NCBI GenBank assembly: GCA_050613775.1
Contig: JBODTK010000010.1
Coordinates: 1,364,001-1,428,000 of the forward strand
Origin: Neocallimastix sp. 'constans'
Lineage: Eukaryota
Reading direction: 5' to 3'
Length of the DNA stretch: 64,000 bases
A program made the translations under genes and the position numbers. Shown here one piece after another: positions 36,387-64,000 of this stretch (the stretch's first letter is position 1; each line of letters starts with the position of its first letter). Under the pieces are notes generated by a model that saw only the letters and a program-made list of their open reading frames with translations, was not told the origin of the DNA and searched no databases.

Positions 36387-36568
36387 AAGGGAAATCTACC
36401 AACTCAAGAAATCAAGGAAATCAAGGAAATCAAGGATATCTACCAACTCAAGAAATCAAGGAAATCAAGGAAATCAAGGATATCTACCAACTCAAGAAAT
36501 CAAGGAAATCAAGGAAATTAAGGAAATCTACCAACTCAAGAAATCAAGGAAATCTACCGAATCAAGAA
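36387..36568. repeat. Compound tandem repeat (AAGGAAATC / TACCAACTCAAGAAATC) in the C2 leader
   Basis: Directly visible. Confidence 0.9.
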
Positions 36569-40500: not shown

Positions 40501-41808
40501 TCTCTAAGTAATAGTTTCTTACTCTTCGATAGCAAATTATACGTTCCTCCTAAGTGTCGTTCTTTCGTTTTGAATATTTGTCATGACTCTCCTTCCTCTG
40601 GACACTTTGGAATTAAGAAAACCCTCAATCTTCTGAACCGTGACTTCTGGTGGCCTTCTTCCAATCCTGATACTAAGGATTATGTCCGCTCTTGCGAAAT
40701 ATGTTGTCGCTCAAAAGTTTCCAAACACAAACCTTACGGCTTGTTAAACCCGCTTGACATTCCTAATCGCCCTTGGACTTCCATCTCAATGGACTTCATA
40801 ACAGACTTACCCAAATCAAACGGCTATACATGTATTTTGGTGGTTATCGATCGTCTTTCCAAGATGTGTCATTTAATTCCGTTCCCAAACGTTCCTTCTG
40901 CTTCAGACACAGCTTCCGCCTTCCTTAACCAAATTTTTCGCTACCATGGACTTCCTACTGAAATCCTATCGGATAGAGGAACACAATTTACATCTAAATT
41001 TTGGACAGCTGTTTGTAAAGGACTAAATATTTCTCTTAAATTTTCTTCTCCATTTCATCACCAAACAAATGGTTTAACGGAGAGGGTGAACTCCGTTATC
41101 GAACAATACTTAAGATGCTATACAAATTTCAAAGGATCTAATTGGAATGACTTCCTTTACTTAGCAGAATTTAGCTATAATAACACCATTCAAGAATCCA
41201 CTAATCATTCACCTTTCTTCGCTAATTATGGATTCAATCCCAGACATTCTCCCGAAGTCCCCACAAATGTTGAAGTACCTAGAGCAGAAGAACTTGTTAA
41301 AAACCTTGCAGAATTAACCAAGGAATTAAAAGAAAATATTAAAATAGCAATTGAAAAACAAGAGAAATATGCCAATAAGCATCGTATGGAACCACCTGAA
41401 TTCAAGAAAAATGACAAAGTTTGGATCAATAGTTCTCTAATTATAAAGAATGGTAACAAAAAGCTTAAACCAAGAAAATTAGGACCTTTTAAAATCCTAA
41501 GCAAAATATCTCCTGTTTCGTATAAACTTGACTTGCCAAAAAATCTTAGGATTCATCCAATCATGCATGTCTCTGACCTTGAACCGTACTTTGAAGATAA
41601 GTTTGGAAGAAACCAAGAACCACCACCAATTATCATTAACAACGAAGAAGAGTACGAAGTTGAACAAATATTAGACAAACGAACTCATTATGGGAAAATC
41701 CAATACTTGATAAAATGGAAAGGATATCCGCTTTCAGAAGCTTCTTGGGAACCTGAGGAAAATCTTAATTCCCCCAAACTCTTGAAAAAATTCAATAAAA
41801 ATAATTAA
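37525..41808 (+). CDS. Intact Gag-Pol: Gag-CCHC, PR, RT, RNase H, IN, chromodomain
   Basis: CLYCGSSNHTLGNC, LLDSGS, YIDD, TDSS, SDHRNL, HHCC/DDE, GPF, chromodomain. The ATG at 37525 aligns with the C1 start. Confidence 0.96.
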   Translation: MEENNFANATYKDGFAGDRRYLKGFLAKMNLIFMIHPDRFNNDETKVIYVISRLYGNAMNWAASLMENQDPCLLNYEAFVERMKSVYGSYDSTFIANQKLRTIRQKRLGDIRSYILEFNSYADESSWNEEAKMDAFLVGLNDQIATRILEMFPGPRSLTAMQTIASRIDGRLSAHRQFTNNQNRSNNNLNNNNSNKKRWNFYKKGSNSKHYGPLSDEEKERRKRENLCLYCGSSNHTLGNCPLKNKKKSPSSTSHITNPEPRAKERPRISDQQNLSLPIFEFTLNVLKSSVKTKILLDSGSQLNLMDVYFANENNIPYSSETIHPEVGRIGGTQKILGETLPISISYKNHNCKTKFYVVDLPSYCALLGAEWLSTHNPTIDFSSKTLHFNSKYCINNCLVIPNTYTTFIPSCNLINEIPKNSDNSDSQKIEEINNSEEKISNEIINNTKNQHKEPNEDNKNVIYLLPTKLSSFMDVFSEVAANMLPPHRQYDCEINLKPNTNLYYGPIYPLTEKELVAFKKYIDEMLAKGFIRKSNSPAGAPIFFVLKKNGELRLVVDYRRLNECTYRNSFPIPLINFMLERLRKGKIFSKIDLRQAFNLIRIKKGDEYKTAFTCVFGHFEYLVMPFGLKNAPAVFQHFINDVFEDIIGKFVFCYIDDIIIFSPDLETHYEHLTEVLTRLRKAGLYAKLEKCEFCVPFLDFLGHRISANGIYMDPKKVSSILEWPAPTNTKELQSFLGLANYYRRFITGFAKLSHPLNILLRKNTKFIWTTESQKAFDEIKSKFSSAPVLAYPNREIPFMVETDSSNFAIGAILSQTSTKDNKIHPVAFFSRALNHAERNYPIYDKELLAIVSALEHWRHLLKGTDIPFTIFSDHRNLLYQKKPEKMSQRLVRWSIFLSEFNFKIVYRSGSSNGKPDALSRRPDYIPSSDDSSSETPFFVLRPENFVVTVLTNSDLSNKILNECKDDIFYHNICEYLENKKLPIPHPNIDKFSLSNSFLLFDSKLYVPPKCRSFVLNICHDSPSSGHFGIKKTLNLLNRDFWWPSSNPDTKDYVRSCEICCRSKVSKHKPYGLLNPLDIPNRPWTSISMDFITDLPKSNGYTCILVVIDRLSKMCHLIPFPNVPSASDTASAFLNQIFRYHGLPTEILSDRGTQFTSKFWTAVCKGLNISLKFSSPFHHQTNGLTERVNSVIEQYLRCYTNFKGSNWNDFLYLAEFSYNNTIQESTNHSPFFANYGFNPRHSPEVPTNVEVPRAEELVKNLAELTKELKENIKIAIEKQEKYANKHRMEPPEFKKNDKVWINSSLIIKNGNKKLKPRKLGPFKILSKISPVSYKLDLPKNLRIHPIMHVSDLEPYFEDKFGRNQEPPPIIINNEEEYEVEQILDKRTHYGKIQYLIKWKGYPLSEASWEPEENLNSPKLLKKFNKNN

Positions 41809-42724
41809 AATAACTTAAACTAGAAAATGAATCTCTAATAAACTTTAAATTTTATAGTATATTATATAATTATATGATTAAATTATATTATTAAATTATT
41901 AATATTAAACTTATTATTATTGTTAAAATCTAATTTTTCCTTTATATTATTTTATAACTTATATTAAAAAAAAAAAAAAAAAAAAATCTATAATAACTGT
42001 AAACTTTATTAATATCATGTAACAAAAATAATTATTAAATATGTTATTTCATGTAATTAATTATTAATATCATGTATTATTATTTTTATTATTTCATACT
42101 ATTAAGCAAAAAAGAAATTCACACTTAAATATTTTATTTATTCATTGTAGTCTAGTTTAACTTTAAGATTCGTCTGGTATCCGAATCCTGGAGGAGGACC
42201 ATGTAACGAATCCTAAAGTTAGTAAAATTGTTGTTGTAGTCTGGTGGTAATACACCATGACAATGAAGCCGAACTTCTTAGGTTCGACTCACACCCTTTC
42301 CCAATCTAAATTATTTTTAGTTAATTAATTAAATCATTGTAGAAAGTTCTAGAGTTTCTTTGGTTAATATTATATAACTAAATGAAACTAGAAAGTTCTA
42401 TTTTAATAATTATTTTATCATTTTTCTATAAGATTCATTTTCTAGAAAGAAAACTTAATTTTTCGAACTTTCGTTAATCTTAACTTTTTCCGAAACTGTT
42501 TTTCCGAAAAAGTATAAATAAGCGTGAATTTCTCAACAAAAAATAATTTTTCTTCGTGCTTTTATTAACTAGTTAAAAGTAATTCGAAATATTACAATAA
42601 CTAATTAATAATAAAAAATAATAATAAATTTTATATTTTAATAAAAATATTAATAAAACAAATTTTTTAAGAAAACGAATTACTTATTAGTGTAGACCTA
42701 TTGGGTGTAAACCGTTACAAATAT

Positions 42725-44807
42725 GAATATTTGGAATACCAGATTCCACATAAATAAAGAAGGTATTATTATCATTATTATTTATATCCAACTCATCATT
42801 TAATTTAATTTCATTAATGTCAGAACATTCATCACTTAAACTATCATCATTATTATTTTCATCTAATTCTTGATCACCTTCATTTGTTTCATCAGTAGGT
42901 TTAAGATTAACATCATAAAATAATGAGGCTAGTTTAACAAAATTATTATCATCATCAATATGATACAGAGTATCATTTACTAAGTTTATATCAAAACGAT
43001 TTCTTTTTAAAGTATCAACACCAATTAATATATCAAATATATCATCTTTCTCTATTTTTCTAAAATAATCTACAAATGTGTAATTTCCAATAGTTATTGA
43101 TAATTCATAAATATCAGAGTCAATAGAATTATTTGAATAAACTTGAAAAATCTTCTCTGATATTCTTCCAATAGGATTTTTATTAATATTATATTTTTTC
43201 AGAGCTGAGGATGTAATTAATTTACACTAGCACAAGAGTCAAGGAATATTTCTACTGGTTTTTTATCAACTGTTCCTTTGACTTTAATCACCTTGTGCTG
43301 ACTTATAATATTCATAACATTAATTAGTGAAGTATTTGCTTTTGTTGTATTATTCCCTTTTCCTTCTGTTAAACGTAAAGCTTTAGTAAATTCTGATCTA
43401 AACTTTGGGAATAAGTCTAATAAGTAAACTAGTTTTGTTATTACTTCAGTTGAAGCTACCTCCTTAATTAAATCATTTATTTTATATTCTTTAAAAGTTT
43501 CCATCATTTTAATGTGTTTTTCCGGTTTATTAAATTCTTGAGTGATGGCTATTTTATTATTATTATTTTCTTCACTTAATATTTCTTTTATTTTTTCCTT
43601 TTTATTAATTTTTTTATCATTCCTTATATTTGGTTGATTAATTACCGAAAGGTCAAGGTAATTTAATTTATTTGTATCTATATTATTATTATCCTTATCT
43701 TGTAATATATTATTTTTCGGAGAATTATTATTATGTATTTCTTTTTTCTTAGTTATTAAATTTTCATTATTTTTAGAGTTAGTAATATTACTGTGTTTTT
43801 TATTATTTATTTCTGTATCTGTTAGAGAAATATTATCATGAATTTCAATTATATCATTAAAAGAAACATTTTTATTATTAGTTTTTGGAATATTTTTTTC
43901 ATTAATTATATCAAATTTTCTAATAGTGTTATTTATTTCTTCATTATTTGGGAAATCATTAGTTGTCACATTAATTTCTTCCGTTTCCATATTTGAGTTT
44001 GTAGATTTATTAATTTTATTATTTAATTTACTTTGAATCTTTTTTTTTATTGCAGGTGTGATAATTGGGACAGGATTATCTGTTAACTTTTTCTTAACTT
44101 CTTTTAGAAAAGGAGTTGATTTTGAATTATTTTTATTTCCTTTTTTCTGAACCACTGCCGCAATTTCCTCCACTTCATCATTATCATTGAAATCATTATT
44201 ATATTCATTTATTTCATCATTTTCAATATTATTTTCTTCTTTGTTTAAATAATAAATATTACTATTTTTTTCCATGTAATTTTGATTATTAGAATAATCA
44301 GGATAATTATTATATTTATTAACTTCATCTTCATAATAATCATTATGCATTAAATGTTCATTATTATCATAATTACTCTCATTTAATTTTATATTATTAG
44401 AAAAGTTATTATTTTCAACATTATTATTATATTTATTGTTGTTTATAATTTCGCCCTCCATTTTAAAATTGTTTTTATTATTAATATTGTTAATATTATT
44501 TATATTATCATTATCACTTGTATAATTATTAATATTTTTAAAATTATTATATATAACATTGTTAGGAGAATTATCATAATTCATGTTGCTATTAATTTTT
44601 TTTTATTTTGTCACTATCATTATTATAATTATATTTTCCATTATCATTATAAAGAATTTTATTAGTTTCCATTATATGATTATTATTATTTAAATCTAAT
44701 GAATATGTTAAATTCACATATTCGTTATTATTGTTTTTATTATAGTTAATATTTTGTTGATTGGTTTGTTTAGTGGAAGTTATCCTTCTCCCAATATTTA
44801 GTTTAAA
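42725..44807 (-). pseudogene. pol: A2 pol 5' part (Asn-rich leader and protease) with 1-nt frameshifts
   Basis: FLDSCASVN then DILIGVD in another frame; homologous to A1. Confidence 0.88.
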
Positions 44808-45987
44808 TGATTATTATTAAGAAGTCCTTTTTCCTCCATTTCTGCTAATTGCTTAAATGTATAAGGGCATTTATTACTCTTGTGTCCTTCTTGGTAACAA
44901 CGATGGCAATATAATGTAGAATTTGGGCTGTTTAAATCTAACCCTTACTGAATTCTATTTTGAATATCGGAGTTATTAATAAATTGTTCTTTTCTATTTT
45001 TTATATACGGATTTTTGATTTGATTATTTTGATCATGATAATTATTATATCCTTGAATATTATTATAATTATTTTGTGGAACTCCAGCATTATAATTATT
45101 AGTTCCATTGTTTATATAATTAAAATTATTATTTCTTCTATTACTGCTATTATTAAAATTATTTATATTTCCATTTGTACGGTATTTACCATAAGGATTA
45201 TTGAGTGTAGCTCTATTTGGATTATATAAATTAAAATTATTACTATTATTAAAAGAATATTCATTATTATTAGTATTCCAGTTATTGTTAATCATATTAT
45301 TATTTTGTTGATAATTATTTCTTGGATCTGCATTAAAATAATTAAATGTAGGATTTCTATTTCTTCTTGGGAAACTAGTATTTTGAGTCAACATAGATAA
45401 ATTTCTAATATTTCTTTTATTGTTAGTTGTTCTAATTTGATATTCTTCATTACTATTATTATTATCTGGTTTGTTCCATTCCTTCTCTGCTTCTTCAGCC
45501 GTTTCAGCAATTTCATAAGCTTCATTCAAGGAATCACATTTAGACATAAATACTTGAGAATAAGCAAAATTCCTTGACTTTATAGCGTTCCTATAAGTTT
45601 TTACTGAAACAATTTTTTGGTAGTCTCTTGACAGATCGTGATATAATCTTCTATATCTATCATTAAAAGTTTTTATTGTTTCATTTTCTTTAATTTTTAA
45701 TCCTTGAAGGTAGGTCAACTTATCTCCTTCGGTAATTCCAAGATGTTCTTCTACTGCCTTTTGAATTTCCTTAAGAGAAGGGTACACACCTGTTCTTTTA
45801 TTTATTAGTCTTCTTAAAACGGCTTTAGTATTTGAATCCACAGCTTCAAAAGCCCAAGTAAAAATTCTTTCCGGGTCTTTTATATTGCAAACTCTCATTA
45901 AGTTGCTAAGGTCTTCAATCCAATCCACTACATTATTTTCATAGTCTTCTAACATAGGGAGGACTTTATAAATTTTCAAAGAATCCA

Positions 45988-45988
<1 letters not shown>
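44798..45988 (-). pseudogene. gag: A2 gag with in-frame TAA at 44945-44947 before the knuckle
   Basis: Reading through the stop gives CHRCYQEGHKSNKC..QLAEMEEKG..HLN*. Confidence 0.88.
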
Positions 45989-46047
<59 letters not shown>

Positions 46048-46442
46048 ATTTATTATTTTTTTTTTTTATAATGTATATTATATATTATTATTTATTTTTA
46101 TTATAAATATATAATTCTCTGATTTTCTTGGCTATTTGTTTTAAATTTTCAAGACTGTGAATTATATCTACTCTCTTGACTTACTCAATTTTCGATTCTA
46201 TTCACCCTTTATTCTCTTTAAAACAAATCCAGTACTCTCTCAGTATTAATATATTTTTATAAATGAATTTATATTTTTTAAAATATTTATAAAATAACCA
46301 CAATTTATTATAAATTTTTTTTTTTTTTTTTTTTTTTATAAAATTTTTTTTTTTTTATATTTTTTTTTTATAAATTTTTTTTTATAATTATTATTTATTT
46401 AATTTTTATACTATATTTTCACGATATTTTCCTGCTTGCTTC

Positions 46443-46459
46443 GCCCGGATTCTCCACCA
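46443..46459 (-). promoter_or_regulatory. PBS, tRNA-Ala-like
   Basis: TGGTGGAGAATCCGGGC next to the 5' LTR; complementary to a ..TTCTCCACCA 3' end. Confidence 0.75.
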
Positions 46460-47388
46460 AAAATGGTTGATACAATTAATTTAAAAAGTATCATAAAATA
46501 TGGGAAAAGCAAGAGGGAATTAATCAAGAAATATCGTATTTATGAAATAGTATAATAATTATTATATATTTATATAATACACTCAAATTATTATTTTAGA
46601 ATATAATGTTCATTTTATTATGTTTATTTATTAAAATTATTCACTTTATTATATTTATTTATTAAAATAATTATTCACTATTATTCATTCTCAATTAATA
46701 CATTTCAATAAAAATAAAAACACAACATTTTTTTTTTTAATTAAAACTTCCTAATTTTTATCTTATTATTCTCTATATTATTATTATTCAAAATTTGTAC
46801 TTTTACATAATTAATTATATTATATATATTTTTATAATAAACTTATATTAATAATAAAATAATAAAATAATTTTATAATATTATATCTTATTAAATATTA
46901 ATTTTAACTTATTTAGAAAATATTAATAATAAAATTATTTACAATAATATTTAAAATAATAATTATATCACTTTACATTCTTATTAAATATCTCGTATCA
47001 GATTGTTGCAGGATTTCGAATAATTTAAATTTTTATTTTCAAAAATAATATATTCTTAATAATTAGATTTTCTTTTTTTTATCTTTTATTAACTTTTAAA
47101 TTTTTTATTAAGTATTTTCTTTTTCTTTTATATTTTTTTTTTTACTACATGAATTTTATAATTATTTTAATTCTTATTAGAATTAATTATTACATGTGAT
47201 TTTAATAATATTTTTTAAAAGTTATTTTAATAATAAAAATATTAATATTAATATAATTAATATTATTTTTAATGACAAAATATTAATAATGATAAAATTA
47301 ATAAATTTAACAATAAAATTATTGATAATATTTTCGATAATATAATTCTTAAAACATTTTAATATAAATAATAATTAAATATAATAAT

Positions 47389-47533
47389 AAATCAATTTAA
47401 TTAATATAAAATAATAATTATTTAATAATTAGTCATTAATCAATTTAATAAAATAATAATTATTTAATAATTAGTCATTAATCAATTTAATAAAATAATA
47501 ATTATTTAATAATTAGTTATTAATCAATTTAAT
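47389..47533. repeat. ~42-bp AT-rich tandem repeat x3
   Basis: AATCAATTTAAT..AATTAGTCATT units. Confidence 0.75.
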
Positions 47534-48466
47534 TTGATAATTTATATAATTATTTTAAATTAAAAATAAAATTATGAAATTATAAAAATAGTTTAAATTA
47601 ATTAACATATAAAGTTATTAAATTTAATTATAATTTCGAATTGTTGTTAAAAAGTAAACAGGTTGAATTTAACGAGGAATCAGGTTGATATATCTATATA
47701 ATATAACTATATAGATATAAGTAAATTACTAAAATAAAAGAGTTATAAAGTTAAATTTGTTAATTTAACACTTAATTAAAACTAATAATTGGTTTGATAT
47801 GATAAAAATTTTTATTTATTAATAAAAATATATAGTTATATTATAATAGGTTAACTATAACCTTACAAAGAACAAAAAGATAAATTTGAATTTTCTTTTT
47901 ATACTTTGTAGGTTTGAGAATATTGATAATAATAATATAAAGTTGATAATAATAATATTTAGTATAAGAATATGTTTAATATAAATAAATTATATTTTTT
48001 AATCTAATATATTAGCTAATATATATAATATAATATTAAATTTAAATATTTAATATAGTAATTAATAATTAATAATTAATTAAATCAATATAACATAAAT
48101 TAATACATAAACATTAATTTATGAATCAAGGATGACATGACCAAATGATTCATGTTAATAAATATTTTATTTATTAATAATATTTAAGTTTAATATGATA
48201 TCATTAGAATCAGTAGGCCTAAGCTGGTCCTAAGATGATCAAATAACTTATAATATTATAAAATAAATAAAATTTAAAGAATAATTAATGAATTATAAAT
48301 TTTTATTAATTATTTTGTTTTTAATAATTTTAATTGAAATTAATTGAAATTGAAATTTAATTCAGTTGTAATTTCAACAACGCCCTTCCACAAAAATCGG
48401 ATTCCAGACGATTTTATGTAACGTTACATAAAGAAATTATTATATTTATAAAATTGTATATTTTAA

Positions 48467-48502
<36 letters not shown>

Positions 48503-48925
48503 AAGTAAAAAGGTCACATGAGTCCTTTAAAGAACACATTACAAGTGGCCATTTCATGGAAATTTCGAAATTGTCAAAATTTACTGAAATTAAAATTTTG
48601 TTATAAAATTAAATATCGAGAAATATAATGGTGTGAATTTTATTAAAAATTTCGTTGAAAAAATGTAAAATTGAAATTTTGAAATTGAAATTGAAATTTC
48701 ATCTTAATTTTATGCATTAAATTGAAAATTTTTAAATATAGTGAAAATTTATAATTTAATGAATATAATAATGTAAAAATAAATAAAGTATTATTAAATT
48801 TCGATTTTTTAAAAATTTTTGAAATTTTGAAATGTAAAATTTTAAATTAACTAATTTAATTTTGAAATATTATTATTTAATATACTATTTATAGCTTAAG
48901 TATAATAATTTTTTTTTTTTTTTTT

Positions 48926-50822
48926 TTAATTATAAGAAAGAGAAGTGAATTTTCTATTATTCTTTAAATATTCTTGATATATTCTTTGATTCCTTGGATT
49001 ATTTTCAACTTCATAAGAAGGCACCCAATTACTTGAACTTTTATATTTGTATCTAACTCTATATTCGTAGCAGTTTTTCTTGTAGTTTGTCCTAAATCCA
49101 GAAATTTCAATAATATCATTAATGGATTCATTGTGCGAACTTCTATTTAAAAACTTTTGCGGAGTTGGGACATAAGGTTCCAATTCAGAGATATGAAAGA
49201 TTGGATGATGTTTTGGAAAAGGTGACTTTTTAAGATCAATTTTATAATTATTATTCTCTAAAACATCGATTACCTTGTAAGGTCCATATTTGCAAGGAGC
49301 GAGTTTAGAACAATCTTCAATATTTAAGGAAGGAGGTGCTTGAATCCAAACCAAGTCACCTTCTTTTATTACAGGAGGTGGCATCCTTTTCTTATCCGCA
49401 TAATTTTTATATAATTCTTTAGATCTTAATATGACATCTTTAATATGATTAAAACTTGTACTTACATTTTTAATAAATTTACTATTAGTATCAACTTGGG
49501 GTAGTAAGAAATATTCGTCCATAGATGGATAAAATCCATAGTTAATAAAGAAAGGTGTTTCTTTTGTAGATTCATTGACTGAATTATTATAAGCGAACTC
49601 TGCAAGATAGATCCAATTAATCCAATCGTCGTGATAATAAGATCTTGAATAAGCTCTTAAATACTGTTCAATAAAGGAGTTGCATCTCTCAACTTGACCA
49701 ACAGTCTCATGATGATCTGTTGTAGCTAATTTGGATTTAATATTAAGTAATTTCATGAATTCCTTCCAAAGTGCACTTGTAAACTGAGGACCTCTATCTG
49801 TATACATATCATAAGGAAGGCCATGTAATTTATAAACATTATTCATAAATGCTTTGGCAGTTTGTTTTGCATCAGGAATTTGTTTGAAAGGTATTAAGTG
49901 AATCATTTTAGAGAAACGATCCACTACAACCATTATTACCGTATATCCCTTTGAATCCGGGAGGCCACATAAAAAGTCAACTTCTATAGATTTCCAAGGT
50001 CTATCAGGTGTTTCCAACGGTTGTAGAAAGCCATATTTCCTATGTCTATTAATTTTGTTTCTTGCACAACATTCACAGGAATTGACAAATTTTGTAACAT
50101 CATCTTGCATTTTTGGCCACCAAAAGTTTCTTGTAATTAATTCAAGAGTTCTTTTAATTCCAAGATGACCAGCGGAAGGCTTTTCATGATATTTAGTTAA
50201 GATTTCTAATCTTAAAATTTCAGGAATATAAATTAAATTATTATATAATATAATATTATCCTTTATTTTGAACTTATTCATTTTCCTAAAGGGTTTATAG
50301 GACATATCATTTTTAATATTCTGTGGGCTAAAATAGAGTCTAATATCATCAGCTGTGGCATCTGTTTTTGTAGCTTCTATAATTCTTTCTAAAAGATCGC
50401 TAACAACACCAATAAAACATGGAACTTCCTTTACATTTTTTATGTCAAGAATATTTTCGGTATTAGTTTCTTCATTATTTTTTATATAATCTGGTCTTCT
50501 TGAAAGAGAATCAGGTTTTCCATTATTGGAACCTTGTCTATAAATTAATTCAAAATTATATTCTTGGAAGAACATATGCCATCTATGTTGCCTTTGATTA
50601 CCAATTTTCCCACCAAGGGTATATAATAAGTTCCTATGATCAGTATAAACAGTTACTTTGTATTTCGCACCAAGTAATAAATGTCTCCATGCCCAAAAGG
50701 CTTCTCTAATAGCTAACAACTCCTTGTCTGTAATAGTATAATTAATTTCTGCACCTTGTAAGCTTCTTGAGAAATATGCAACTGGATGTAATTTATTATT
50801 ATCATCCTTTTGTGATAAAACA
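48926..50822 (-). pseudogene. pol: B2 RNase H-integrase fragment
   Basis: ELLAI..TDHRNL, HEKPSAGH..CECC, DDE, GPY. Cut at 50822 by an LTR. Confidence 0.92.
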
Positions 50823-52303
50823 TGTTGAAATTACAACTGAATTAAATTTTAATTTCAATTAATTTCAATTAAAATTATTAATGTTGAAATTACACTGAAT
50901 TAAATTTCAATTTCAATTAATTTCAATTAAAATTATTAATGTTGAAATTACAACTGAATTAAATTTCAATTTCAATTAATTTCAATTAAAATTATTAAAA
51001 ACAAAATAATTAATAAAAATTTATAATTCATTAATTATTCTTTAAATTTTATTTTTTTTATAATATTATAAGTTATTTGATCATCTTAGGACCAGCTTAG
51101 GCCTACTGATTCTAATGATATCATATTAAACTTAAATATTATTAATAAATAAAATATTTATTAACATGAATCATTTGGTCATGTCATCCTTGATTCATAA
51201 ATTAATGTTTATGTATTAATTTATGTTATATTGATTTAATTAATTATTAATTATTAATTACTATATTAAATATTTAAATTTAATATTATATTATATATAT
51301 TAGCTAATATATTAGATTAAAAAATATAATTTATTTATATTAAACATATTCTTATACTAAATATTATTATTATCAACTTTATATTATTATTATCAATATT
51401 CTCAAACCTACAAAGTATAAAAAGAAAATTCAAATTTATCTTTTTGTTCTTTGTAAGGTTATAGTTAACCTATTATAATATAACTATATATTTATATTAA
51501 TAAATAAAAATTTTTATCATATCAAACCAATTATTAGTTTTAATTAAGTGTTAAATTAACAAATTTAACTTTATAACTCTTTTATTTTAGTAATTTACTT
51601 ATATCTATATAGTTATATTATATAGATATATCAACCTGATTCCTCGTTAAATTCAACCCGTTTACTTTTTAACAATAACCTTACCTTAGAAAAGAGAATC
51701 ACCTTGATATGTCCCTTTATAATACTGGCAAAAGATGCAGAAGTTACATTCTTATCAAGAGAAGATTTTAATAAATATAATGAAGATCTTCAAAAGAAAC
51801 TTTTTACTTTAAATAGGGATAACAAGAATATCATAAAACAACTTTCTTCTATTACCAGCATTTTAAATCAGAAATTCGATTTTATTCCTAATGTTAATGC
51901 TTCTCAAAATCAAGATGATAACGCTTCTATATCAACAAGAAGAGAGGCAGACAATGATGTAATAATGAGGAATACTATTCCCAATACACTTCAAGAAGTC
52001 CCAGAACCTGGATTTTTCACTGGGGATACTAAGGAAACCGATCTCTTTTGTCAGCTCTGTGAAGATACTATTAAGACTTATCCTAACTGTGAATCTACTA
52101 TGAATGTAAAAATTAATTATGTTAAGTCACGCTTAAGAGATGGTGCTCGTAATTGGTATTATGCCAAATATAAAGATAGAAGTCCAGCAACATTAGAAGA
52201 ATTGATTAAAGAATTAAGGAAAGCTTTTAATAATGTTGCCAGTAAAAAATTAGCCATGATCCAACTCGCAAAAATTTCTCACACATTTGGGAAAATTAAT
52301 GAA
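50823..52303 (+). mobile_element. Nested B3: two 58-59-bp LTR-start duplicates, full LTR 50940-51674, PBS, truncated gag
   Basis: TGTTGAAATTAC at 50823, 50882 and 50940. The gag ATG at 51709 is followed by an 86-bp deletion relative to B1. Confidence 0.88.
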
Positions 52304-52444
52304 TTATAAATTTTTATTAATTATTTTGTTTTTAATAATTTTAATTGAAATTAATTGAAATTGAAATTTAATTCAGTTGTAATTTTAACAATTGTATAAT
52401 TTAAATCATTAGTTTATTGTATTTTGGCTAGTTCCGTAACAAGA

Positions 52445-53363
52445 TGTAATAATTCTATTAAGAACTAACTCAAAATAGAATTATTAACTACAACTTAACG
52501 ACTAATTCATTAAGTTGAGAAAATAAAATAAAATAAATTTTTTTTTTTTACCTTTAGAGTAGAGTTTATTATAAAATTAATTATAATAATAACACAAAAA
52601 GTAAGAAAAGAATTGTTTGTATAAATTGATTTTAAAAATATGTTTTTGAATAAAATATTTTTATTAATTTATTAAAGTTAAAAATATAAAATTGTTACTA
52701 TTATAACTATGTTTTTTATAATAATAACTCTTGATTTCTCAAAGAGAACTCAAGAGCCTTATTTATATTTTTTTATGAAAATAAGGTTAAATAAGAAAGG
52801 GTTTTCTAATCTTAACAAATCTCTTATCTAGGAAAAGATTAGATAGAAAAACCTAGATAAGTTTTCGATCGATATTCTATCCATATCGATCATCGCATTA
52901 ATTAAGTAAAACCGATTACTTCTAAAAAGTAATTGGAAAAAATCTTAATTAACCGATTTTCCAATCTAATGATCGAAAATAAAAGAATAAAATAATAAAA
53001 GATATTTCGATCATATAATTTATCCTTATATTACAAATATAAAATTAAATAGTTAATAAAATACAGAATACATTATAAAATACAGAATACATTATAAAAT
53101 ACAGAATACATTATAAAATACAGAATACATTATAAAATACAGAATAAAATACAATACAAAATACATTAGTTACAGTAGAGAATTTAGCATATTGTAAATA
53201 TATTATTTAAAATTAATTAAATAAATTTTGTTAAATTAATGAATATTTAAAATTAAATTAAATAATTTAATAAATATTATATGTAATTAAATAAAGTTAT
53301 AGTTATAATAACTTAACTAAGAAAATATAATTATTTGCTAACAAATAATTATAAATTCTTACA
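52445..53363 (-). mobile_element. Intact family-S solo LTR
   Basis: TG..CA termini; TSD CAAGA at 52440-52444 and 53364-53368. Confidence 0.93.
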
Positions 53364-54695
53364 CAAGATTTTCTGTAACAGATACATGGTAACTTCAAGC
53401 CTATCCAATGATAGTTCTTTGGTTACGTAACGTATCTCTAAACAGCTAGCAATTTCGGCTAATCAAATAAAATCTTTTGTTACTTTCGTACATTAAATTT
53501 TATTATTTTATAAATAATTATATAGTTAAATATTTATTTAAATATATTTTATTTAGTGATTAGTAAACTAAGTTAAATTAAATTATTTACCAATCATAAT
53601 ATTATTGACATGTATAAATAATAATTGAACTTGTAACTGTAACGCACTAGCGTTACTATTAACGTAAATTGTTATTATAAATATTAATATTGATAAATAA
53701 AAATATAATTATTAAATAAAAAATATTACTCAGTGTAAGCCCAGTAACTGATAACAAATAGAGTTATAAAGTGCTGCGCTATACTCTAGTGTAAAAAGAA
53801 ATAATAATTATAGAATTAATTAATTTAGTGTTTATTATTAACAACTCGAATAGAGAGGTGTTAAGTTATCTTAGCCTTTAGATTTAATTATTATTCGTTA
53901 TTTTAGTTAATAATAAACTTACCTTTTACAATAGTAACGCTTTATAACTAAATAGCCGATAATAATTAAATAAAAATTTAAACGCTAAGTAATAATTTAA
54001 TAAGATAGAATAGTTAGTTTTATAAAATAAAAATTAATATTTAAACAATAAATCATAGTTTACTTATTTTCTTTGTTTACTTTTTAATTGTTTAACTTAG
54101 AAAATTTTTGATACAAAATTTACGCCACAATACGTAGCGGAAGAAGCCACAAAAATTTTAATCAAAAAAAAAAAAAAAAAAAAAATTTTTCGGCTTCAAA
54201 ATAAAATTTTGATCAAAAATCTAAAAATTTAAATTTTTTTAAAATTTCGTATATCCGAAATTTAATTTATTAATAATTTAATTATAAATCATTATTTAAT
54301 TTAAAAATTTTAAATTTTTGGTAATACCGATTTTTAATTAATAAAAATTTTGTACTTTACCAAATAAAATTCGCTTTTGCTTAATAGGTAGTCATTTTTT
54401 ATACAAATTTATATTTGTAGTGACTCGGGAAGCGAAAGAAAAATTTTTAAAATAATTATTTATTTAAATTATTAATTATTATACATTTAATTTTTAAAAA
54501 AAAAATTTATTTTTTTATTTTTTATTTTTATTTATTTTATATTATTATTTAAAAAAAAAAAAAAAAAAAAAAAATTAAGTGGACGATTATATCAACTAAA
54601 TAAATTTAAGTAAGTGAATAAATTATAATCTTTTAAATAAACTAAAAGTGAGTGGATATATTTATAATTACTAGATAAATTATTAAGAAAAGTAA

Positions 54696-56461
54696 ATGGA
54701 TAAAAAGAATAAGAGTAATAAGGCGCCTGAAAACACAAGAAAAACCACAAGGAGTGGTTCTCTGAAGAGTTCGGTGGGCAGCGTGACTGCAGAGAGTAGT
54801 CCTACGCCTGTAGAAGCACCTCCATCTCGACGCCAAAATACAGGAGACAAGAAAATGACTAGTACTCCTGAGAAACCAGCTGCTTCTAAACCTAAACCAG
54901 CTGCGGCGCCTGAGAAGAGTCAACCCGAGGCTAGTAAACCTGAAGCCAGTAGGCCAGGAACTAACCAAGGAGAAAGTTCAAGCAAAAATGTTAATGCTGG
55001 AGCGATGGACTTTGCTGCTTTGCTGAGTAAGCAGATGGAGGACTTTAAGAACATGATAATAAGCACTCAGCAACAGACGGCTGCAATGATAGAACAGATG
55101 CAAAACCAAAGTGAAATGAAATTCGCTAAAATTGAAGCCGAACTAAGCAACTTTATCCCCGCTGTGGACCAACGATTTGGAGAGGTTGAGAGGCGTGTGG
55201 AAGAAGAGGAGTCTAGTAGCCAAGCTAGTGTGCTAGAGCTTCAAAAGGTACAAGCGTATCTAAGTCAGCAACTTGCTGAAAGTAAAGATAAAGAGGCCGC
55301 TGTTAAAACTGAAATCAAAAAGATTGAAACCTATCTGGATGCGGACCAGATAAAAGGAAAACAAATACAACAAGACCTAGAGGATAAAGGTCAAAAATTG
55401 TTCAAGATTGAGGAATTCTTGGATGCGAACCAAGAAAGGGATAAGGTACACTTGAATGAGCTCGAAGAAAAAATCGAGAAGCTAATGGCCATTAACCAGG
55501 TACAGCAACAGGAGATCGAACGACTGGGTAAGCTGGCTTTGGATGCTCAGAATAAGGAGCAGGCATCGACGAGCAAACCTTTCCCACTACACATAGATAC
55601 TAAAGAAGCAAGATACGGTAGTTATCACCACTTCACGCCGCCTATAATGACCAGAAGTGCGATGGAAGATGTGGTTATGACCGACGCGTACCCTGTGGAG
55701 TACGAACGAGACATCCCAATGTTCCATGGTGAAACTGGAGATGTAGAATCATTTATTGACAGGTTAAAAAGGTACTTTGGCAGACACCAGAAGTATTACC
55801 AAAGCGAGCCCACGGCTATGTTGTACTTTATTGAGGACCACTTACAAAGAACTGCTAAGAAGTGGTACCAAATGGACGAAGTATTCAAACAACGAGATGA
55901 CCCACAACCTCAAAGGTTGATGGAGAGATTGCTGAAGGAATTTAAAAGCGAAAGAACGTTGGAAGAAGTTAAAACAGCAATGCTTAAACTTAGGCACGAT
56001 TGGGGTAAAGCCTATGAATACCTATCAGAATTCAATAGGTTAAGTAGAATACTTCAGCTAACAGATGAAACCAAAAGACTACTACTCGTACAACAAGTTA
56101 GACCATCGGTTCGTGAAGCTTTTATGATCTACCTGCAGAAAAGCAAACCTTAGAAGATTACGTGACTTGTCTAAGGAGATGCGACACATTCCCCGCGGAA
56201 TACAAAGACGATTACCTAGAAAGATACGAATACAACCGCGAGAGGAAGATAGCCATCATTGCCCTACTTGGAATGATGGACCCGCGAAGACCCTCCAAGG
56301 ATATTGAAGCCAAAAGAAGGAGGAACAGCGATAATCGCCGAGGCGATAAAAGAGATTTCAGTAGGAAAGAGCCTACTAAGCAAAACAATTACGATAAAAA
56401 CAAGAAGGATGGATATAACCACAATAGTGGTAAAGATTTTAGTACGAGACCAAGTGAATAA
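54696..56461 (+). pseudogene. gag: D Gag (coiled-coil N-terminus), 1-nt frameshift at ~56122
   Basis: FHGETGDVESFI..AKKWY gag core. One extra T joins ORFs 54696 and 56162. Confidence 0.8.
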
Positions 56462-59400
56462 CAAAATTACTATAAAGACTCACGTACCAGCAGTAATAAT
56501 CCAATTCCCAAGACAGCACTTCTAATGCAAGCTGGGTCTGAGTACGAAGAATTTGTGCCTGAGGCCAAGATAAGTAATCTTCGTACCAAAGAGGGGCTCC
56601 AAGATTTAAATGTGCTGTACGATACTGGATCACAGATCAACATGATCCATCCGCAGTTAGCCAAGGAGATGGGACTCAAGACAGAAGACCGTCCCTTAAC
56701 GTTCACTACTGCCGCTGGTAAAGTGCTGATATCACAGGTTACGGAAGAGTTCAAGATTAAGATTAAGCTGGTCGAAGAGCGTACTGGTAAAGTCAAATGG
56801 TATGACTTTAATACAAGATGCAGGCTAGCCGAGAACGATCATTCTGGGATCAAGATTCATGGATAGACATTTAATCTATAGAAAGATTGACGTCCATGAT
56901 CAACAGCCTAAGGTATATAAAATAGATGGCGAAAGACCAGGGCTACCAGATGTAGACTCACCAGAAGAGTGCGCAGGTGAAAGTATCTACATGGTGCAAC
57001 TCCCAGAAGAAAGAGAAGAAGCTGTGCAAAAGGAGATTCAACCTACAGCGAGAATTACCAAAATTATAAATCAGGTTATTGATAACCAGAAGTTGAAGGA
57101 CACGGTGTATGAATTAACGAGGCAATATTACCGTGATAGAGGAATTGAGTATACGATGGATTACTACGATTATTTAGTGGATTACGATAAATGGGCAGAT
57201 TGGTTCAAGGTACAAAAGACTAAAAATCTAAAGGAGAGTGAAATCAATAAGAACCCTACGGAAAGTAGTGCACAAAAAGATAGCCAGACAAAAGATCATC
57301 TAGCCATGATCACGCAAGAGGATTCGGTGGCGGAAACAATCAGAAAAGTGGGACTTGAGAAACTATTGTCAATAGGCGAAATTATAGATAAGTATTATGG
57401 AGACTTAACGGAAGCATTCAATGAAGAAATCGCTGAGACATTACCAGAGCACAGGCCGTATGATTGCAAAATAGAACTAGAGCCTGATGCACCACTTTAT
57501 AAAGGAGCTATCTACCCAACGAGTCCTAAAGAAGAGAAAGCACTTAAAGAATATATTGATGAAAATTTAGCTAAGGGGTTTATAAGAAGGTCAGAATCTC
57601 CGGCGGGTTACCCTGTATTGTTCGTGCCGAAGAAATCAGGTGAGCTACGACTTTGCATGGATTATCGCAAACTGAACCAATGGACTAAACGCAACGCCTA
57701 TCCGATCCCAAGAATTAGTGCAGTGTTCGAAGCTATGAAAGGAGCAGTTGTGTTCTCCAAGTTCGACCTAAAATCTGCCTATAACTTGGTACGAATTCGA
57801 GAAGGTGATGAGTACAAGACAGCCTTCAACACCAAGTTTGGACACTTTGAACATTTGGTAATGCCTTTTGGGCTAACCAATGCACCAGCAGTGTTCCAAA
57901 GCTTCGTGAATGATGTCTTCAGCGAGGATATCGGGAAGTACTGTCAAGTCTACCTAGATGACATCGTCGTATATTCCAAAACTTTGGAGGAACATGTAGA
58001 GCATGTTCGAACGATTTTAAAGAAGCTGATACAACATAAACTCGTAGCTAAGATGTCCAAATGTGAGCTACATAAGTTAAAGATCTCATTTTTAGGCCAT
58101 GTGGTCAGCAAGGATGGTGTAGAGACTGACCCAGAAAAGATTAAGGCCGTGGCAGAATGGCCACAACCAGAAAATATCAAGCAGATGCAAAGCTTCTTAG
58201 GCTTTTGCAATTATTACAGGAATTTTATTAAGAATTTCTCTGAAATAGCCAAACCGTTATTTAAAATGACCTCAAAGAAAGAAAAATTTGAATGGAGCGA
58301 AGAAGGATTGGCCGCGTTTCACAAATTAAAGGAAATGCTTACCTCTCCGCCAGTACTAGCTTATCCTGACCACGAGAAACAGTTCTTCGTTGAATGTGAT
58401 GCTAGTAATTACGCGATAGGAGGTGTGCTGTCACAGAAAGGAGACGATGGTACCCTTCATCCTATATATTATTATTCTAAGACACTTAGTAAGGCTGAAG
58501 TAAATTATTCGATTACAAAGAAAGAACTATTAGCCATTAAGACTGCTTTTACAGAATGGCGACACTTGCTTCAAGGTGCGAAGCATAAGATTATTGTTTA
58601 TAGTGACCACAGAAATCTGTTGTTCGCTACCAAACCACAATTACTAACTCCTAGGCAAATTAGATGGCAAGAACTATTCGCCACATACTGGTTTGAAATA
58701 GTTTACAGACCTGGGAAGAAAAATGGTATGGCTGACGCCCTCTCAAGAGTTGAAACAGAGAAAACTGAGGGTAAAGAATTTGATAAAGATAGTCTATTAA
58801 AACCCGATCAATTGGTAGGATTTGATGACGTAGATGGAGAAGCTAGTTATCTAGCCTTAGCTACCAATTTCGTGGATGATATCAAGCAGGCCTACCGACA
58901 GGACAAAATGGCCCAAGAGATTATGAAAGATCTAGCAGAAGATGCCAGAAATAATTATAACAAGAAGCATTGGCTAGAAGTAGATGGCCTTCTGGTTAGA
59001 AAGGAAAACCCTGAACAAATTTACGTGCCCACAACGTTCAGGAAAACAATTATTCAATTAAACCATGACTCGGAGTACGCAGGACACTTAGGAATTGATA
59101 AGACTTCGGACCTAGTATCTAGGAATTTCTACTGGCCGAAGATGAGGAAGGATATATCAGGCTACGTGAAAGCTTGTAGAACCTGCGCTACTAAGAAGGA
59201 TGATTGCCATAAAGAATATGGTACTGCGGTAAGAGTTCCGGTCGCAGAATTACCCTGGCAAGAGGTACAATTGGATTTTATAACTGATCTGCCAGTGAAG
59301 AGTAGAGTAAGGACCAATAGTGGTTATGTTTGGGAAACGAAAAGAGCAGGTTGTATCTTAGTATGCTGCGATAAATTAACCAAGATGATACACCTGATAG

Positions 59401-60362
59401 GATTTAAACATGTGCCCAACGCTAACGAGACTGCTGACGCATTCCTAAAGGAGATTCACAGGTTGCATGGATTCCCTAAGGTGGTTACAACTGATAGAGG
59501 AGTCCAGTTCACCAGTCAGGTATGGAAGGAGCTACTAGAGTTCTTCGGGACCGAAGTAAACCATGCTACCACTAGTCACCACGAGACAGTAGGCCAAGTG
59601 GAAAGGAACAATGCCTACGTAGAGACTTATTTACGGTGCTTTGTGGGAACCTACGATGATGAAAGTTGGATGGACTACTTGTTCTTAGCAGAGTTCTGTT
59701 ATAACAACGCAATCCACGCTTCTACCCAACAATCTCCTTTCCTCACCTTATATAACTACCAGGTACACAACTCCCCTAAGACAGCCGATTTAGTACACTC
59801 GTTAGGCGAAGCCAAAATGATCGATAGCTTTGCTCACAACTTGGGAAACCTAAAGCACATCCTAGAAATCGCCCAAACAAGATACCTGGATAATATGGAA
59901 AGGACCCGTACAGATAATTACCCTAGGTACAGGTTGTTAGATAAAGTATGGCTAAAGAAACCTGAAAATTATGACGCGTTGCCATTCTACAAACTTACAA
60001 CAAGAAAATTCGGACCATTCAAGGTAGTTGGTGTCGACGAAGAAAAGAAGAATTATAGATTAGATATAAGTCGTTCACCTTTCCCAAATATGTACCCAGT
60101 GTTCCATGTGAGTGAATTGGAACCATTCTACAACTTACCTAAAACATTAGTGCCGGCTCCTGCAGGAAACCAAAAGATAATTCATATCCTTGGATCAAGG
60201 AAACACCAAGGACTTTATCAATACCTGGTTGCGTACCAGAATGATAAACAAGAGTGGGTCAACGCCGACGTGATCGACGACAATCCTCACTACGCAGAAT
60301 TGCTGGAGGATTACCAAGATTTTAGCTATAGCCAGTTCATCGCTAGCGTCGTCAACCATTAG
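56462..60362 (+). pseudogene. pol: D pol (PR, RT, RNase H, IN, degenerate chromodomain-like tail), frameshift at ~56835
   Basis: LYDTGS, then IILGS in a shifted frame; YLDD, CDAS, SDHRNL, HHCC, TDRGVQF, GPF. Confidence 0.9.
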
Positions 60363-61653
60363 TAGCTTGCTCCTTGGGAGAGGCCTTGTAACAGATACAT
60401 GGTAACTTCAAGCCTATCCAATGATAGTTCTTTGGTTATGTAACGTATCTCTAAACAGCTAGCAATTTCGGCTAATCAAATAAAATCTTTTGTTACTTTC
60501 GTACATTAAATTTTATTATTTTATAAATAATTATATAGTTAAATATTTATTTAAATATATTTTATTTAGTGATTAGTAAACTAAGTTAAATTAAATTATT
60601 TACCAATCATAATATTATTGACATGTATAAATAATAATTGAACTTGTAACTGTAACGCACTAGCGTTACTATTAACGTAAATTGTTATTATAAATATTAA
60701 TATTGATAAATAAAAATATAATTATTAAATAAAAAATATTACTCAGTGTAAGCCTAGTAACTGATAACGAATAGAGTTATAAAGTACTGCGCTATACTCT
60801 AGTGTAATAAGAAATAATAATTATAGAATTAATTAATTTAGTGTTTATTATTAACAACTCGAATAGAGAGGTGTTAAGTTATCTTAGCCTTTAGTGTTGA
60901 AATTATAACTGAATTGAAATCTCAATTTCAGTTATTTACATTTCAATAATTAAAAATATTATTTATTTAATTATAAATAATATATATAAATAATATATAT
61001 ATTTAAATAATTAATAATTAATATAAATTCTTGTTTAATATTTAAAGGGTTATCTTAGGCCTAATAATTCTGAGAATATTAATAAATAAGGTTTATATTA
61101 ATAATTAATTTCAATGATACATTTGACGTCACGTGTATTTTATTTATATTATGTTTTTATATATGTTTACAACATATCTATATTAAATTCAATTATTCAA
61201 ATTAATTATATAATTAAATTTATCCTTATATTTTATTAGTATTTATATTACTATATTATTACTATCTTATAATTAAATATTATTATTATGTAACTTACAA
61301 AGTATAAAAGAAAGATGTAAAAATCTATCTTTTATGTTCTTTGTAAGGTTATTGTAAAATTACCTTAATAGTAATATATTATAGATATTTTATTATTAAA
61401 TAAAATCAATAAATTTAAAATCAAATTAATTTGATAATTCTAATTATCAAAGTTTATTATAAATAAATTTTCATTAAACTAAACATTTAAATATTTATTA
61501 TTATTATTATATATCTATATAGTATATTACTATATAGACATATCGACTTAGTGAATATTTTTATTAAAACATATTATTTTATTTAAATTTAAATTATAAA
61601 TTATATCAAAATCTTAACAATAACCTTACCCTAGTTTTAGTTGCTACCTTGAT

Positions 61654-62724
61654 ATGTCTTACTATACGAACGTCTGGGCTAGTGAAATACCTGACATTGC
61701 ACCAATGTCAGAAGTTAATAAATTAAGGTCTGACGCCCAAGTTACCGTATCCGAATTGGCTTCTTCTGTTAATGATAGTTTTTTATTAAAAGAAGATTTT
61801 AATAATTATAACCAGGACTTACAGAAAAAACTTTATACATTTTACAGAGATAATAAAAATATTATTAATCAACTTTCTAATTTAACTAAAATATTCAATG
61901 AAAAATTAGATATAAAAATTAGTACCAATGATGATCCCTCTTCTAGCCAATCTGTACCACAAAATCAAGATAACGCCTCTATTTCTACCAGACGTGATGC
62001 AGACAATGATGTCATCATGAAAAATAGTTATTCTAATAATTTGCAACAAGTACCTGAATTTGGATTCTTCTCAGGAAACACTAATGACACAGATTTATTT
62101 TGTCAATTATGTGAAGATACTTTCTCAACTTATCCCAACTTAGGATTACCAGAAGAAGTAAAAATAAACTTTGTCAAATCTCGTTTGAGAGACGGTGCAA
62201 GAAATTGGTATATTGCTACCTATAACGAGAACAATCATCCAGGAACACTAAAGAAATTATTAAGTGATATAAAGAAAACTTTTACGAATGTTGCAAGTAA
62301 AAAATTGGCTAAAATCCAGTTAGTAAAATTAAAACATTCGTATGGGAAAATAAATGATTATATAGAAAAGTTTAGAACGTTAACTACTGGTCTGTCTTGG
62401 GACGAAGAAGCTTTAGTCTTATTTTTCTATAATGGACTTCACCCAAAGTTCCAAGAAGAAATAGATAAAATGGAAGAATTCCCTACAAAGATTGGTGATA
62501 TTTATACTAAGTGCATCTTATTTGAAAATAATATTAAAAGTAAGGACCAATTAAGAAATAATATTGATAATAAAAATTTGAGAAAGAAACATTCAAGCCT
62601 ACATGTAAACAATAGCAAGAATTATAATAATAATAATTATTATTATACTAAAAATAAATCTAGCAATAATTATTTTAATAATAATAACAATAATAATAAT
62701 CAACATAATAACCAAAAAAACTAA
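61654..62724 (+). CDS. gag: B' Gag
   Basis: Colinear homologue of 19656-20735. Confidence 0.9.
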
Positions 62725-64000
62725 TTGATGGGCTTCAAAAGGAGTCCAGAACATCAAAAAATTTAAAAACAATTTATTATAATTTTCCTACACTTGATTC
62801 AATCAATGAATCAAATCTCCCATCTACATTCCTTTTATTCAAATCTTATATTCCTATTAAATTCTTAAATAATTTTTCAATTAAAAATGAAAAAATTCAA
62901 AAATTAACTTCTGAATCTATGTTAGATTCAGGATCCTTTTGCAATTTTATCACAGAAAAATTAGTAAATAAATTAAAACTAAATATTCAAAAAACAAAAA
63001 ATAAAATCCTAGTTAAAGGTATTTCAGGCAGAACTACCAAATTAGATCAATTTGTTTGGTTAAATTTTCAAATTAAATTTTTTAAAAATAATAAATTTTA
63101 TTTTCAAGATTTTAAAGAAAAATTTTTAATCTCAAATTGTATTCCTACTGGTTTACTTTTTGGAAATCAGTTTATTAGGAAATTCAAAATACATTACAAT
63201 TATAAAAATAATACCTTATATTCTTATTTAAATTATAATTCTTTAAAAGATCATAAAAATAAATCCATAAAATATAAGGGAAATAATTTTTATTTAAACT
63301 CGTTGAAAAGAAAAATTTTTAAAAATAAATTTTTTAAAAGAAAAATAAAAAATAAATTTTATTATAAAAATTTTTCAAAAAATCGATCAAAAAATAATTC
63401 AAAAAATATCTCCAAAAAATTTAATTTAAAAAATTTAAAAAATTTTTCAAAAAATTCAAAGTTTAATAAATATAAAAATTCTATTAATAAAAATTCTAAA
63501 ATTTATGTATATGTAAAATATTTAAATAAATCTAAAAGTAAATTTTCTTCCAAAAAATTTAACAAAAATCATCGAGATTTATATAATAATAAAAAAGAAT
63601 TTAGTTATAATTTTTTAATATATTGTTTTCTTTCAACTAAAGATAAAGTTGAAATTGAAAATGAGGAATCAAAAGTAGAAGAAATTCCTCATCAATATCA
63701 AGATTTAGCAATCGTATTTAGCAAAAAAGAGGCAGATAAATTACCTCCTCACCGTTTAACCGACTGTAAGATTGTTTTAGAAAAAGACGCTACACTCCAT
63801 TACGGCCCAATTTATCCATTAACTGAAGAAGAATCACAAGTTCTTAAGGACTATATAAAAGAAAATTTAGAAAAAGGATTTATTAGACCATCAGAATCTC
63901 CTGCTGGATATCCTGTCCTTTTTCAAAAGAAAAAAGATGGTTCCCTTCGGTTATGTGTAGACTATAAAAAATTAAATGCAGTAACTATAAGAAATTCATA
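62715..64000 (+). CDS. pol: B' Pol 5' part (PR, RT start) in the -1 frame, partial
   Basis: MLDSGSFCN at 62919; [11 protein letters not shown] at the window end. Confidence 0.85.

What the first reader, a model, noticed from the sequence alone, without database searches (positions are those of the whole stretch)
52391..60894. Three insertion offsets predict a second tRNA gene just beyond the window
Seen: with later insertions removed, B2's end is 59 bp from D's insertion point (52391-52444 plus 53369-53373). B' is also 59 bp from it (TSD 5 + 49 bp of missing D LTR + TSD 5), and the S solo is 10 bp from it. The 49-bp B-S difference equals 65-16 at tRNA-Ile. Inference: a + strand Pol III gene starts ~6 bp after D's right TSD (TTTTC), which would make D a start-site-proximal inserter too (~11 bp).
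Basis: inference. Interest (0 to 1): 0.85.

Follow-up and report, generated by a model that had tools for sequence, protein, structure and literature searches.

The report
Retrotransposon stack pointing at unseen tRNA
Five jumping genes in a very AT-rich fungal genome are piled up at one spot, with spacings that match a second pile in front of a tRNA gene in the same window, so they likely aim at the start of another tRNA-type gene predicted to lie about 4 kb beyond the window, which could not be read.

Summary
The site is a polar stack of five LTR insertions (E, G, H, S, D; about 46 kb with nested elements). Overlapping target duplications show that it grows to the right, away from tRNA-Ile. 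A second stack of six LTRs sits 14-16 bp upstream of tRNA-Ile and shares the S and G families, with B1 at 65 bp. Aligning the two stacks puts a gene start 5-7 bp after TTTTC and D at about 11 bp. Contig ends in public runs show D ends 10, 0 and 1 bp from S-, T- and G-type LTRs, as that model predicts. The gene was not seen: no genome is held, and none of 10 D-end flank rows shown held a tRNA. It would lie near position 68,000. Two of five B-family insertions are off 65 bp. D and B are sister chromovirus clades with degenerate chromodomains. This works like Ty3/DGLT-A targeting; the fixed 65-bp LTR site is the unusual part. The scan noted similar 12-16-bp targeting on other DNA before.

The parts
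4107..5020 (-). S-like solo LTR 'S-1', stack 1, offset 15 (duplication ATGAT)
5025..5979 (-). S-like solo LTR 'S0a', stack 1, offset 16 (AATGA)
5986..6487 (.). G-like solo LTR, stack 1, offset 14 (4-bp TGAT)
6492..7395 (.). T-type solo LTR, stack 1, offset 15 (ATGAT)
7401..15947 (-). S-like LTR 'S0b' (offset 15), split by chromovirus C (8185-14150) and a B solo LTR (14188-14922); the stretch between the two opposed B LTRs is inverted
   Evidence: swapped duplications AAATT and TACAA/TTGTA
15948..21504 (-). Element B1, inserted inside S, 65 bp upstream of the tRNA
21506..21553 (-). 5' end of the youngest S LTR of stack 1, 16 bp upstream of the tRNA (rest at 14923-15755)
21570..21662 (+). Intron-containing tRNA gene, likely Ile(TAT): the measured anchor
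21713..30202 (-). Element E, gypsy with tRNA-type primer site and no chromodomain; oldest member of stack 2, inferred offset 13; its two flanks differ (TATTT/GATTT)
30207..47000 (-). Element G (4-bp GATT, inferred offset 13), holding a B solo LTR (35041-35775) and chromovirus F (35814-42719)
47004..52441 (.). Putative solo LTR H (687 bp without B2; TG...CA ends, 4-bp AGAT, inferred offset 14); no second copy in the window
47645..52390 (-). Rearranged element B2 inside H (ATTGT both sides), 51 bp from H's right end, inferred offset 65
52445..53363 (+). S solo LTR (CAAGA both sides), inferred offset 16
53369..53373 (+). TTTTC, left target duplication of D
53374..60894 (+). Element D: 5' LTR 53374-53930, self-priming site, gag 54696-56153, pol to 60362, 3' LTR 60387-60894 cut by B'; inferred offset 11
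60895..64000 (+). Element B' (LTR 60895-61619; gag and pol 62-64% identical to B1), runs off the window; inferred offset 65

Best explanation
Five LTR retrotransposon insertions lie stacked at one short target, and they likely aimed at the start of an RNA polymerase III gene (probably a tRNA) predicted to lie on the + strand beyond the window, 5-7 bp past D's original target duplication. Shown: the stack, its duplications, its rightward growth from G to H to S, and a matching stack at tRNA-Ile. Inferred: each family has its own distance from the mature 5' end (D about 11; E, G, H 13-14; S, T 15-16; B 65), each new arrival lands next to the gene and pushes older ones away, and B-family elements fall inside whichever LTR is then nearest. 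Inferred by analogy with Ty3: the integrase is tethered to TFIIIB/TFIIIC, in D and B probably through the C-terminal domain and a degenerate chromodomain; start-site families insert at the downstream edge of the complex and B just upstream of it.
For: (1) Stack 1: 6 of 6 successive junctions upstream of the real tRNA resolve to offsets 14-16, and B1 sits at 65. (2) Stack 2 junction spacers are 4, 3, 3 and 10 bp; H's duplication includes G's last base and S's includes H's last two, so younger members lie to the right, away from tRNA-Ile. (3) One free number (6) gives S 16, G 13, H 14, B2 65, B' 65, against S 15-16, G-like 14 and B 65 measured at tRNA-Ile. (4), the 5 single-contig rows behind D's end: S-type 3' end at 10 bp (X2), T-type LTR at 0 bp (X2), G LTR at 1 bp (X3), a 7-letter E/G-type start at 1 bp (X2; weak), and one likely internal variant (X14). 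Ten bp is what 'S first, then D' predicts; 0-1 bp is what 'D first' predicts. Motif matches in the window. (5): S joined head to tail to S with a 5-bp spacer (X9); S 3' end joined to D 3' end (X9, X14); the consensus of 27 contigs left of D in X1 resembles an S 3' end at 10 bp (16 of 20 letters by eye; agreement only 0.51). (6) D and B form sister clades (SH-aLRT 97, quick tree of 50 of 57 proteins) with no Pfam Chromo hit, next to C and F, which have one and sit at no fixed offset. (7) The model of D's last 180 residues has the Ty3 integrase as its top two matches (E 2e-3 and 3e-3, high rmsd) and fits the Rhino chromodomain over 59 columns at 1.9 A (E 0.09): weak.
Against: The predicted gene was not seen. 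None of the 10 rows behind D's end shows a tRNA 5' end, and the two largest consensus rows (8 and 7 contigs) are AT-rich; 21 of 41 loose-end rows were not shown, few junction contigs were laid (3-21 per run), and the tool drops human-like contigs, which may include tRNAs. Of 5 independent B-family insertions, 2 are off 65 bp (solo at 14188, at least about 203 bp; solo at 35041, about 4.3 kb), and 2 of the 3 that fit are the ones used for the inference. LTR ages disagree with the stack order: D has 5 substitutions in 508 bp, the older G 0 in 541 (Fisher p 0.026; 0.11 after removing 2 that one search lists as family polymorphisms). E's flanks do not match. H is called an LTR from its ends and duplication only. 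Only one real anchor gene calibrates the offsets. Both targets read GATTTT at -13 to -8 (stack 1 in its older duplications), so a sequence preference may contribute.
Confidence: 0.82

Rival explanations
1. The elements target each other's LTR ends (bound integrase or LTR-end chromatin), and B falls about 50 bp from such an end; no gene is needed at site 2.
For: Every resolved D flank is another LTR, not a tRNA. B1, B2 and B' duplications lie 45-49, 47-51 and 50-54 bp inside an LTR end.
Against: Those three distances differ, yet all become 65 once family offsets are added. It does not explain one-way growth, the end of stack 1 at a real tRNA, or why S-D spacers are 10 or 0-1 bp.
Confidence: 0.07
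2. The families recognise a short DNA motif (GATTTT-like) and the tRNA-Ile neighbourhood is incidental.
For: Both targets carry GATTTT at the same register.
Against: Such a motif is common at 24% GC. The 10-bp S-D spacer of the X2 contig has another sequence. A motif at -13 does not place B at -65 inside three unrelated LTRs.
Confidence: 0.04
3. The anchor was a Pol III gene but has since been lost, moved by recombination between LTRs, or is misjoined in the assembly.
For: The window holds an LTR-mediated inversion, a rearranged B2 and mismatched E flanks.
Against: B' and D are young-looking and their junctions are clean; nothing points to a break right of D.
Confidence: 0.05
4. Stack 2 is aimed downstream of tRNA-Ile (Skipper-2/TRE3 style), since E starts 50 bp after that gene.
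For: E begins at 21713, 50 bp after 21662.
Against: G, H and S get younger away from tRNA-Ile, 25-32 kb from it. At most E could fit.
Confidence: 0.02

Closest known systems
Ty3 of Saccharomyces cerevisiae (Ty3/gypsy, Metaviridae)
   Same: Insertion 1-4 bp upstream of the tRNA start site, about 15 bp from the mature 5' end (PMC5006619, PMC5911963, passages); a vestigial chromodomain acts as a ruler on TFIIIB (bioRxiv 10.1101/2021.07.27.453949, passages). D's integrase matches Ty3's at E 3.5e-32.
   Different: D is self-priming (11 of 11 bases), whereas Ty3 is tRNA-primed (recalled). Several families share the window here, and sequence similarity to Ty3 stops before the chromodomain.
Tj1 of Schizosaccharomyces japonicus
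   Same: [quoted passage not shown]
   Different: Tj1 inserts in one orientation; D is inferred in both. Relatedness of D to Tj1 was not tested.
DGLT-A and Skipper-2 of dictyostelids
   Same: DGLT-A: 13-33 bp upstream, TGG primer site, short integrase tail, like E and G here. Skipper-2: chromovirus whose diverged chromodomain goes with tRNA targeting, while its canonical sister is not targeted (PMC5006619, passages), like D/B against C/F.
   Different: Skipper-2 inserts downstream. D has two reading frames and a chromodomain-like tail, unlike DGLT-A.
TRE5 and NLTR-B (non-LTR, dictyostelids); Ty1
   Same: Fixed sites 40-54 and 39-64 bp upstream (Table 1 of PMC5911963, seen as a passage) resemble B at 65.
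   Different: These are non-LTR elements; Ty1 is copia-type with a window of about 1 kb. That table lists no LTR element with a fixed site near 65 bp.

Membership tests
Ty3/gypsy LTR retrotransposon (D) | RT, RNase H, integrase in that order | tested here: met
Ty3/gypsy LTR retrotransposon (D) | Two TG...CA LTRs | tested here: met
   503 of 508 bases identical; 3' copy cut by B'
Ty3/gypsy LTR retrotransposon (D) | Matching target duplication on both sides | not testable with these tools
   right flank lies outside the window; no genome held
Chromovirus (D, B) | Chromodomain at the integrase C-terminus | tested here: inconclusive
   no Pfam Chromo hit; aligns with the chromodomains of C and F but lacks the first aromatic residue (cage positions recalled); fold fits Rhino chromodomain at 1.9 A, E 0.09
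Tf1/Tj1-type self-priming elements (D, B) | Primer site complementary to a stretch inside the LTR | tested here: met
   D 11 of 11, B1 and B' 10 of 11
Pol III start-site-targeting elements (works like Ty3) | Repeated insertion within about 20 bp upstream of a Pol III gene | tested here: met
   S, S-like, T and G-like LTRs at tRNA-Ile, 6 of 6 junctions
Pol III start-site-targeting elements (works like Ty3) | A D copy seen directly next to a Pol III gene | tested here: inconclusive
   0 of 10 D-end rows shown; offset inferred from neighbouring LTRs only
Pol III start-site-targeting elements (works like Ty3) | Integrase binds TFIIIB or TFIIIC | not tested
   host subunits not on hand; no complex prediction was run
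Ty3 proper | tRNA primer-binding site (recalled) | tested here: not met
   D and B are self-priming
DGLT-A | Single ORF, short integrase tail without chromodomain, TGG primer site | tested here: not met
   not met for D and B; E has the TGG site and short tail but separate gag and pol frames, relatedness not tested
TRE5 / NLTR-B | Non-LTR element | tested here: not met
   B has 735-bp LTRs and an integrase

The most novel reading that the evidence does not exclude
In gut fungi, two sister chromovirus clades that both lost the canonical chromodomain read the same Pol III complex with different rulers: D lands at the start site (about -11) and B at a fixed site just upstream of TFIIIB (-65), an LTR-element behaviour absent from the published table I read. 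With an unrelated tRNA-primed gypsy lineage they build one-way stacks of over 40 kb in front of single tRNA genes.
Probability: 0.45. Interest if true: 0.75.

Novelty: new variant of a known kind. Interest (0 to 1): 0.55.

Why it matters
Pol III targeting is known from yeasts and social amoebae with compact genomes. Here it appears in a repeat-rich early-diverging fungus, in at least two gypsy lineages at once, so stacks become a dated record of insertions. If D and B really differ by 54 bp in aim, they are a natural pair for testing the Ty3 chromodomain-ruler model. Site-specific native integrases could also help engineer gut fungi. My literature searches listed no report of this in these fungi, but the one paper on their LTR elements (Navaratna et al. 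2024, PubMed 38750926) is not held; I saw only its citation, and it may cover the point.

Tried and rejected
No whole genome is held. The unique 25-mer of the spacer was absent from metagenome contigs. A combined S/D LTR-end motif gave 4 loci in metagenome contigs, none with a tRNA, likely chance. LTR-end motifs in viral contigs gave 1 chance hit and 0 hits. D protein or alignment found no relative in viral contigs. Nineteen loci in prokaryote genome bins carry related pol genes, with no tRNA in any; the S/D stretch gave only short, weak hits in 3 of 4 such bins. Relaxed ARAGORN, a B-box scan and Rfam found no second credible Pol III gene in the window. B' right junction (expected before 53877) was not among the loose-end rows shown. 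VIA-align fold searches were not obtained. The careful tree did not finish; the quick tree is cited, and E fell below its coverage cut. The + strand B LTR and gag at 50823-52308 was first read as a separate insertion; it shares both private variants with B2's LTR, so I count it as a rearrangement of B2. Supplements were not read.

Full report
Setting. The window is 23.9% GC and nearly all nested Ty3/gypsy elements. D's nearest named relatives come from anaerobic gut fungi (P0003, P0015), so the host is probably one. One tRNA gene is present, 21570-21662 +. No whole genome is held, so nothing past 64,000 could be read.

The observation. All numbers check. B2 ends at 52390 with ATTGT on both sides. 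54 bp follow, then the 919-bp S solo LTR with CAAGA on both sides, then TTTTC, then D. D's 3' LTR stops at TTTAG, 49 bp short, where B' begins. At the tRNA, S ends 16 bp upstream and B1 sits inside S at 65 bp. A rough chance that both B2 and B' hit the base set by S is 4e-7 to 3e-6, post hoc.

Stack 1, with a real anchor. Upstream of the tRNA lie six LTRs in a row. Their junction spacers read ATGAT, ATGA, AATGAT, TGAT, ATGAT, ATGA: repeated copies of the same few bases at -16 to -11. This gives offsets 15, 16, 14 (a G-like LTR with a 4-bp duplication), 15, 15, 16. Three duplications include the last base of the left neighbour, so younger members lie nearer the gene. The last junction is read through an inversion between two opposed B LTRs, shown by swapped duplications. 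S's two duplications differ at one base (AATGA, AATCA).

Stack 2, the finding. Left of H lie G and E. Junction spacers are GATT, GAT, AGA and CAAGATTTTC, all cut from one target, AGATTTTC. H's duplication includes G's last base and S's includes H's last two, so the order is G, H, S and the anchor is on the right. tRNA-Ile, 25-32 kb to the left, cannot be it. With x bases between TTTTC and the gene, S = 10+x, G = 7+x, H = 8+x, B2 = B' = 59+x, D = 5+x. Stack 1 values (15-16, 14, 65) give x = 5-7, best 6. B' would end near 67,900 if it is whole.

Other copies. Public runs hold the families (X1-X3 share 0.85-0.89 of words and may be the window's own source, so they are not an independent organism). 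Laying contigs on D's end showed 20 of 41 loose-end rows, 10 of them behind the end. Of 5 single-contig rows, one has an S-type 3' end at 10 bp (allowing one change in D's last three bases), one a T-type LTR at 0 bp, one a G LTR at 1 bp, one a 7-letter E/G-type start at 1 bp, and one is likely an internal variant. Of 5 multi-contig rows, one resembles the T-type start, one an S-type start at 1 bp, and three are unassigned. If S sits at 16 and D at 11, S-then-D gives 10 bp and D-then-S gives 0 bp; G at 14 gives 1 bp. All three occur. One search adds a head-to-tail S pair with a 5-bp spacer and an S-end/D-end joint in two metagenome runs. No row shows a tRNA. The tool leaves out human-like contigs, and D copies seem often buried, but this is a real gap.

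Against. Two of five independent B-family insertions are not at 65 bp, and two of the three that fit are the inferred ones. D's LTRs differ at 5 of 508 bases while the older G's differ at 0 of 541 (p 0.026); two of the five are family polymorphisms (then p 0.11). E's flanks do not match. Both targets share GATTTT.

Mechanism. D, B, C and F are self-priming. In a quick tree of integrases (50 of 57 proteins), D and B clades are sisters (SH-aLRT 97) and group with C and F (98). C and F carry a Pfam chromodomain and sit inside other elements at no fixed offset; D, B and their 14 database relatives in that clade carry none. Their tail still aligns with it but lacks the first aromatic residue (cage positions recalled). 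A model of D's tail (mean pLDDT 76) ranks the TFIIIB-bound Ty3 integrase first and fits a chromodomain, both weakly. Ty3's vestigial chromodomain contacts Brf1 and acts as a ruler (bioRxiv 10.1101/2021.07.27.453949, passages). I infer similar tethering here; it is untested. E and G have tRNA-type primer sites and 34% identity to D (E), so targeting spans two lineages. S, T and H are known only as solo LTRs.

Comparison. Offsets of 11-16 match Ty3, Tj1 and DGLT-A (PMC5006619, PMC5911963, PMC4600332; passages only). The D/B versus C/F split parallels Skipper-2 versus Skipper-1. A fixed site near 65 bp is listed only for non-LTR elements in Table 1 of PMC5911963. Earlier notes of this scan report 16-bp and 12-bp targeting in other fungal DNA; I did not check them.

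Verdict. Observation confirmed. A Pol III gene to the right of D: about 0.82. That it directly follows TTTTC with no later LTR between: about even. New variant of a known kind; interest 0.55.

Noticed in passing
window 14188-16682: Inversion between two opposed B LTRs, shown by swapped target duplications (AAATT and TACAA/TTGTA).
   Followed up: yes
window 50823-52390: B2 is rearranged: three tandem copies of the LTR start, a full LTR and gag on the + strand, then the first 97 bp of the LTR inverted. Looks like a fold-back duplication with loss of protease and RT.
   Followed up: partly
window 21663-21712: If E's flanks are one 5-bp duplication with one change, the predicted gene began only about 58 bp after tRNA-Ile: a tandem gene pair now about 46 kb apart. 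Otherwise two loci were joined by recombination.
   Followed up: partly
window 1995-2031: Start of another LTR, 37 of 38 bases identical to the LTR start in locus L007.
   Followed up: no
window about 3530-4101: Probable seventh, decayed T-type LTR at the far end of stack 1, followed by ATGAT.
   Followed up: partly
L006-L010: AT-rich fungal-type retrotransposon contigs filed inside bacterial and archaeal genome bins: likely contamination of those bins.
   Followed up: partly
window 14188, 47645-48379, 50940, 52390: The first bases of B LTRs vary as TGTCGA, TGTTGA, TGTTAA, a pattern like CpG decay at the LTR terminus.
   Followed up: no
window 46460-47000: G's right LTR lacks 346 bp next to the primer site compared with its left LTR.
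   Followed up: no
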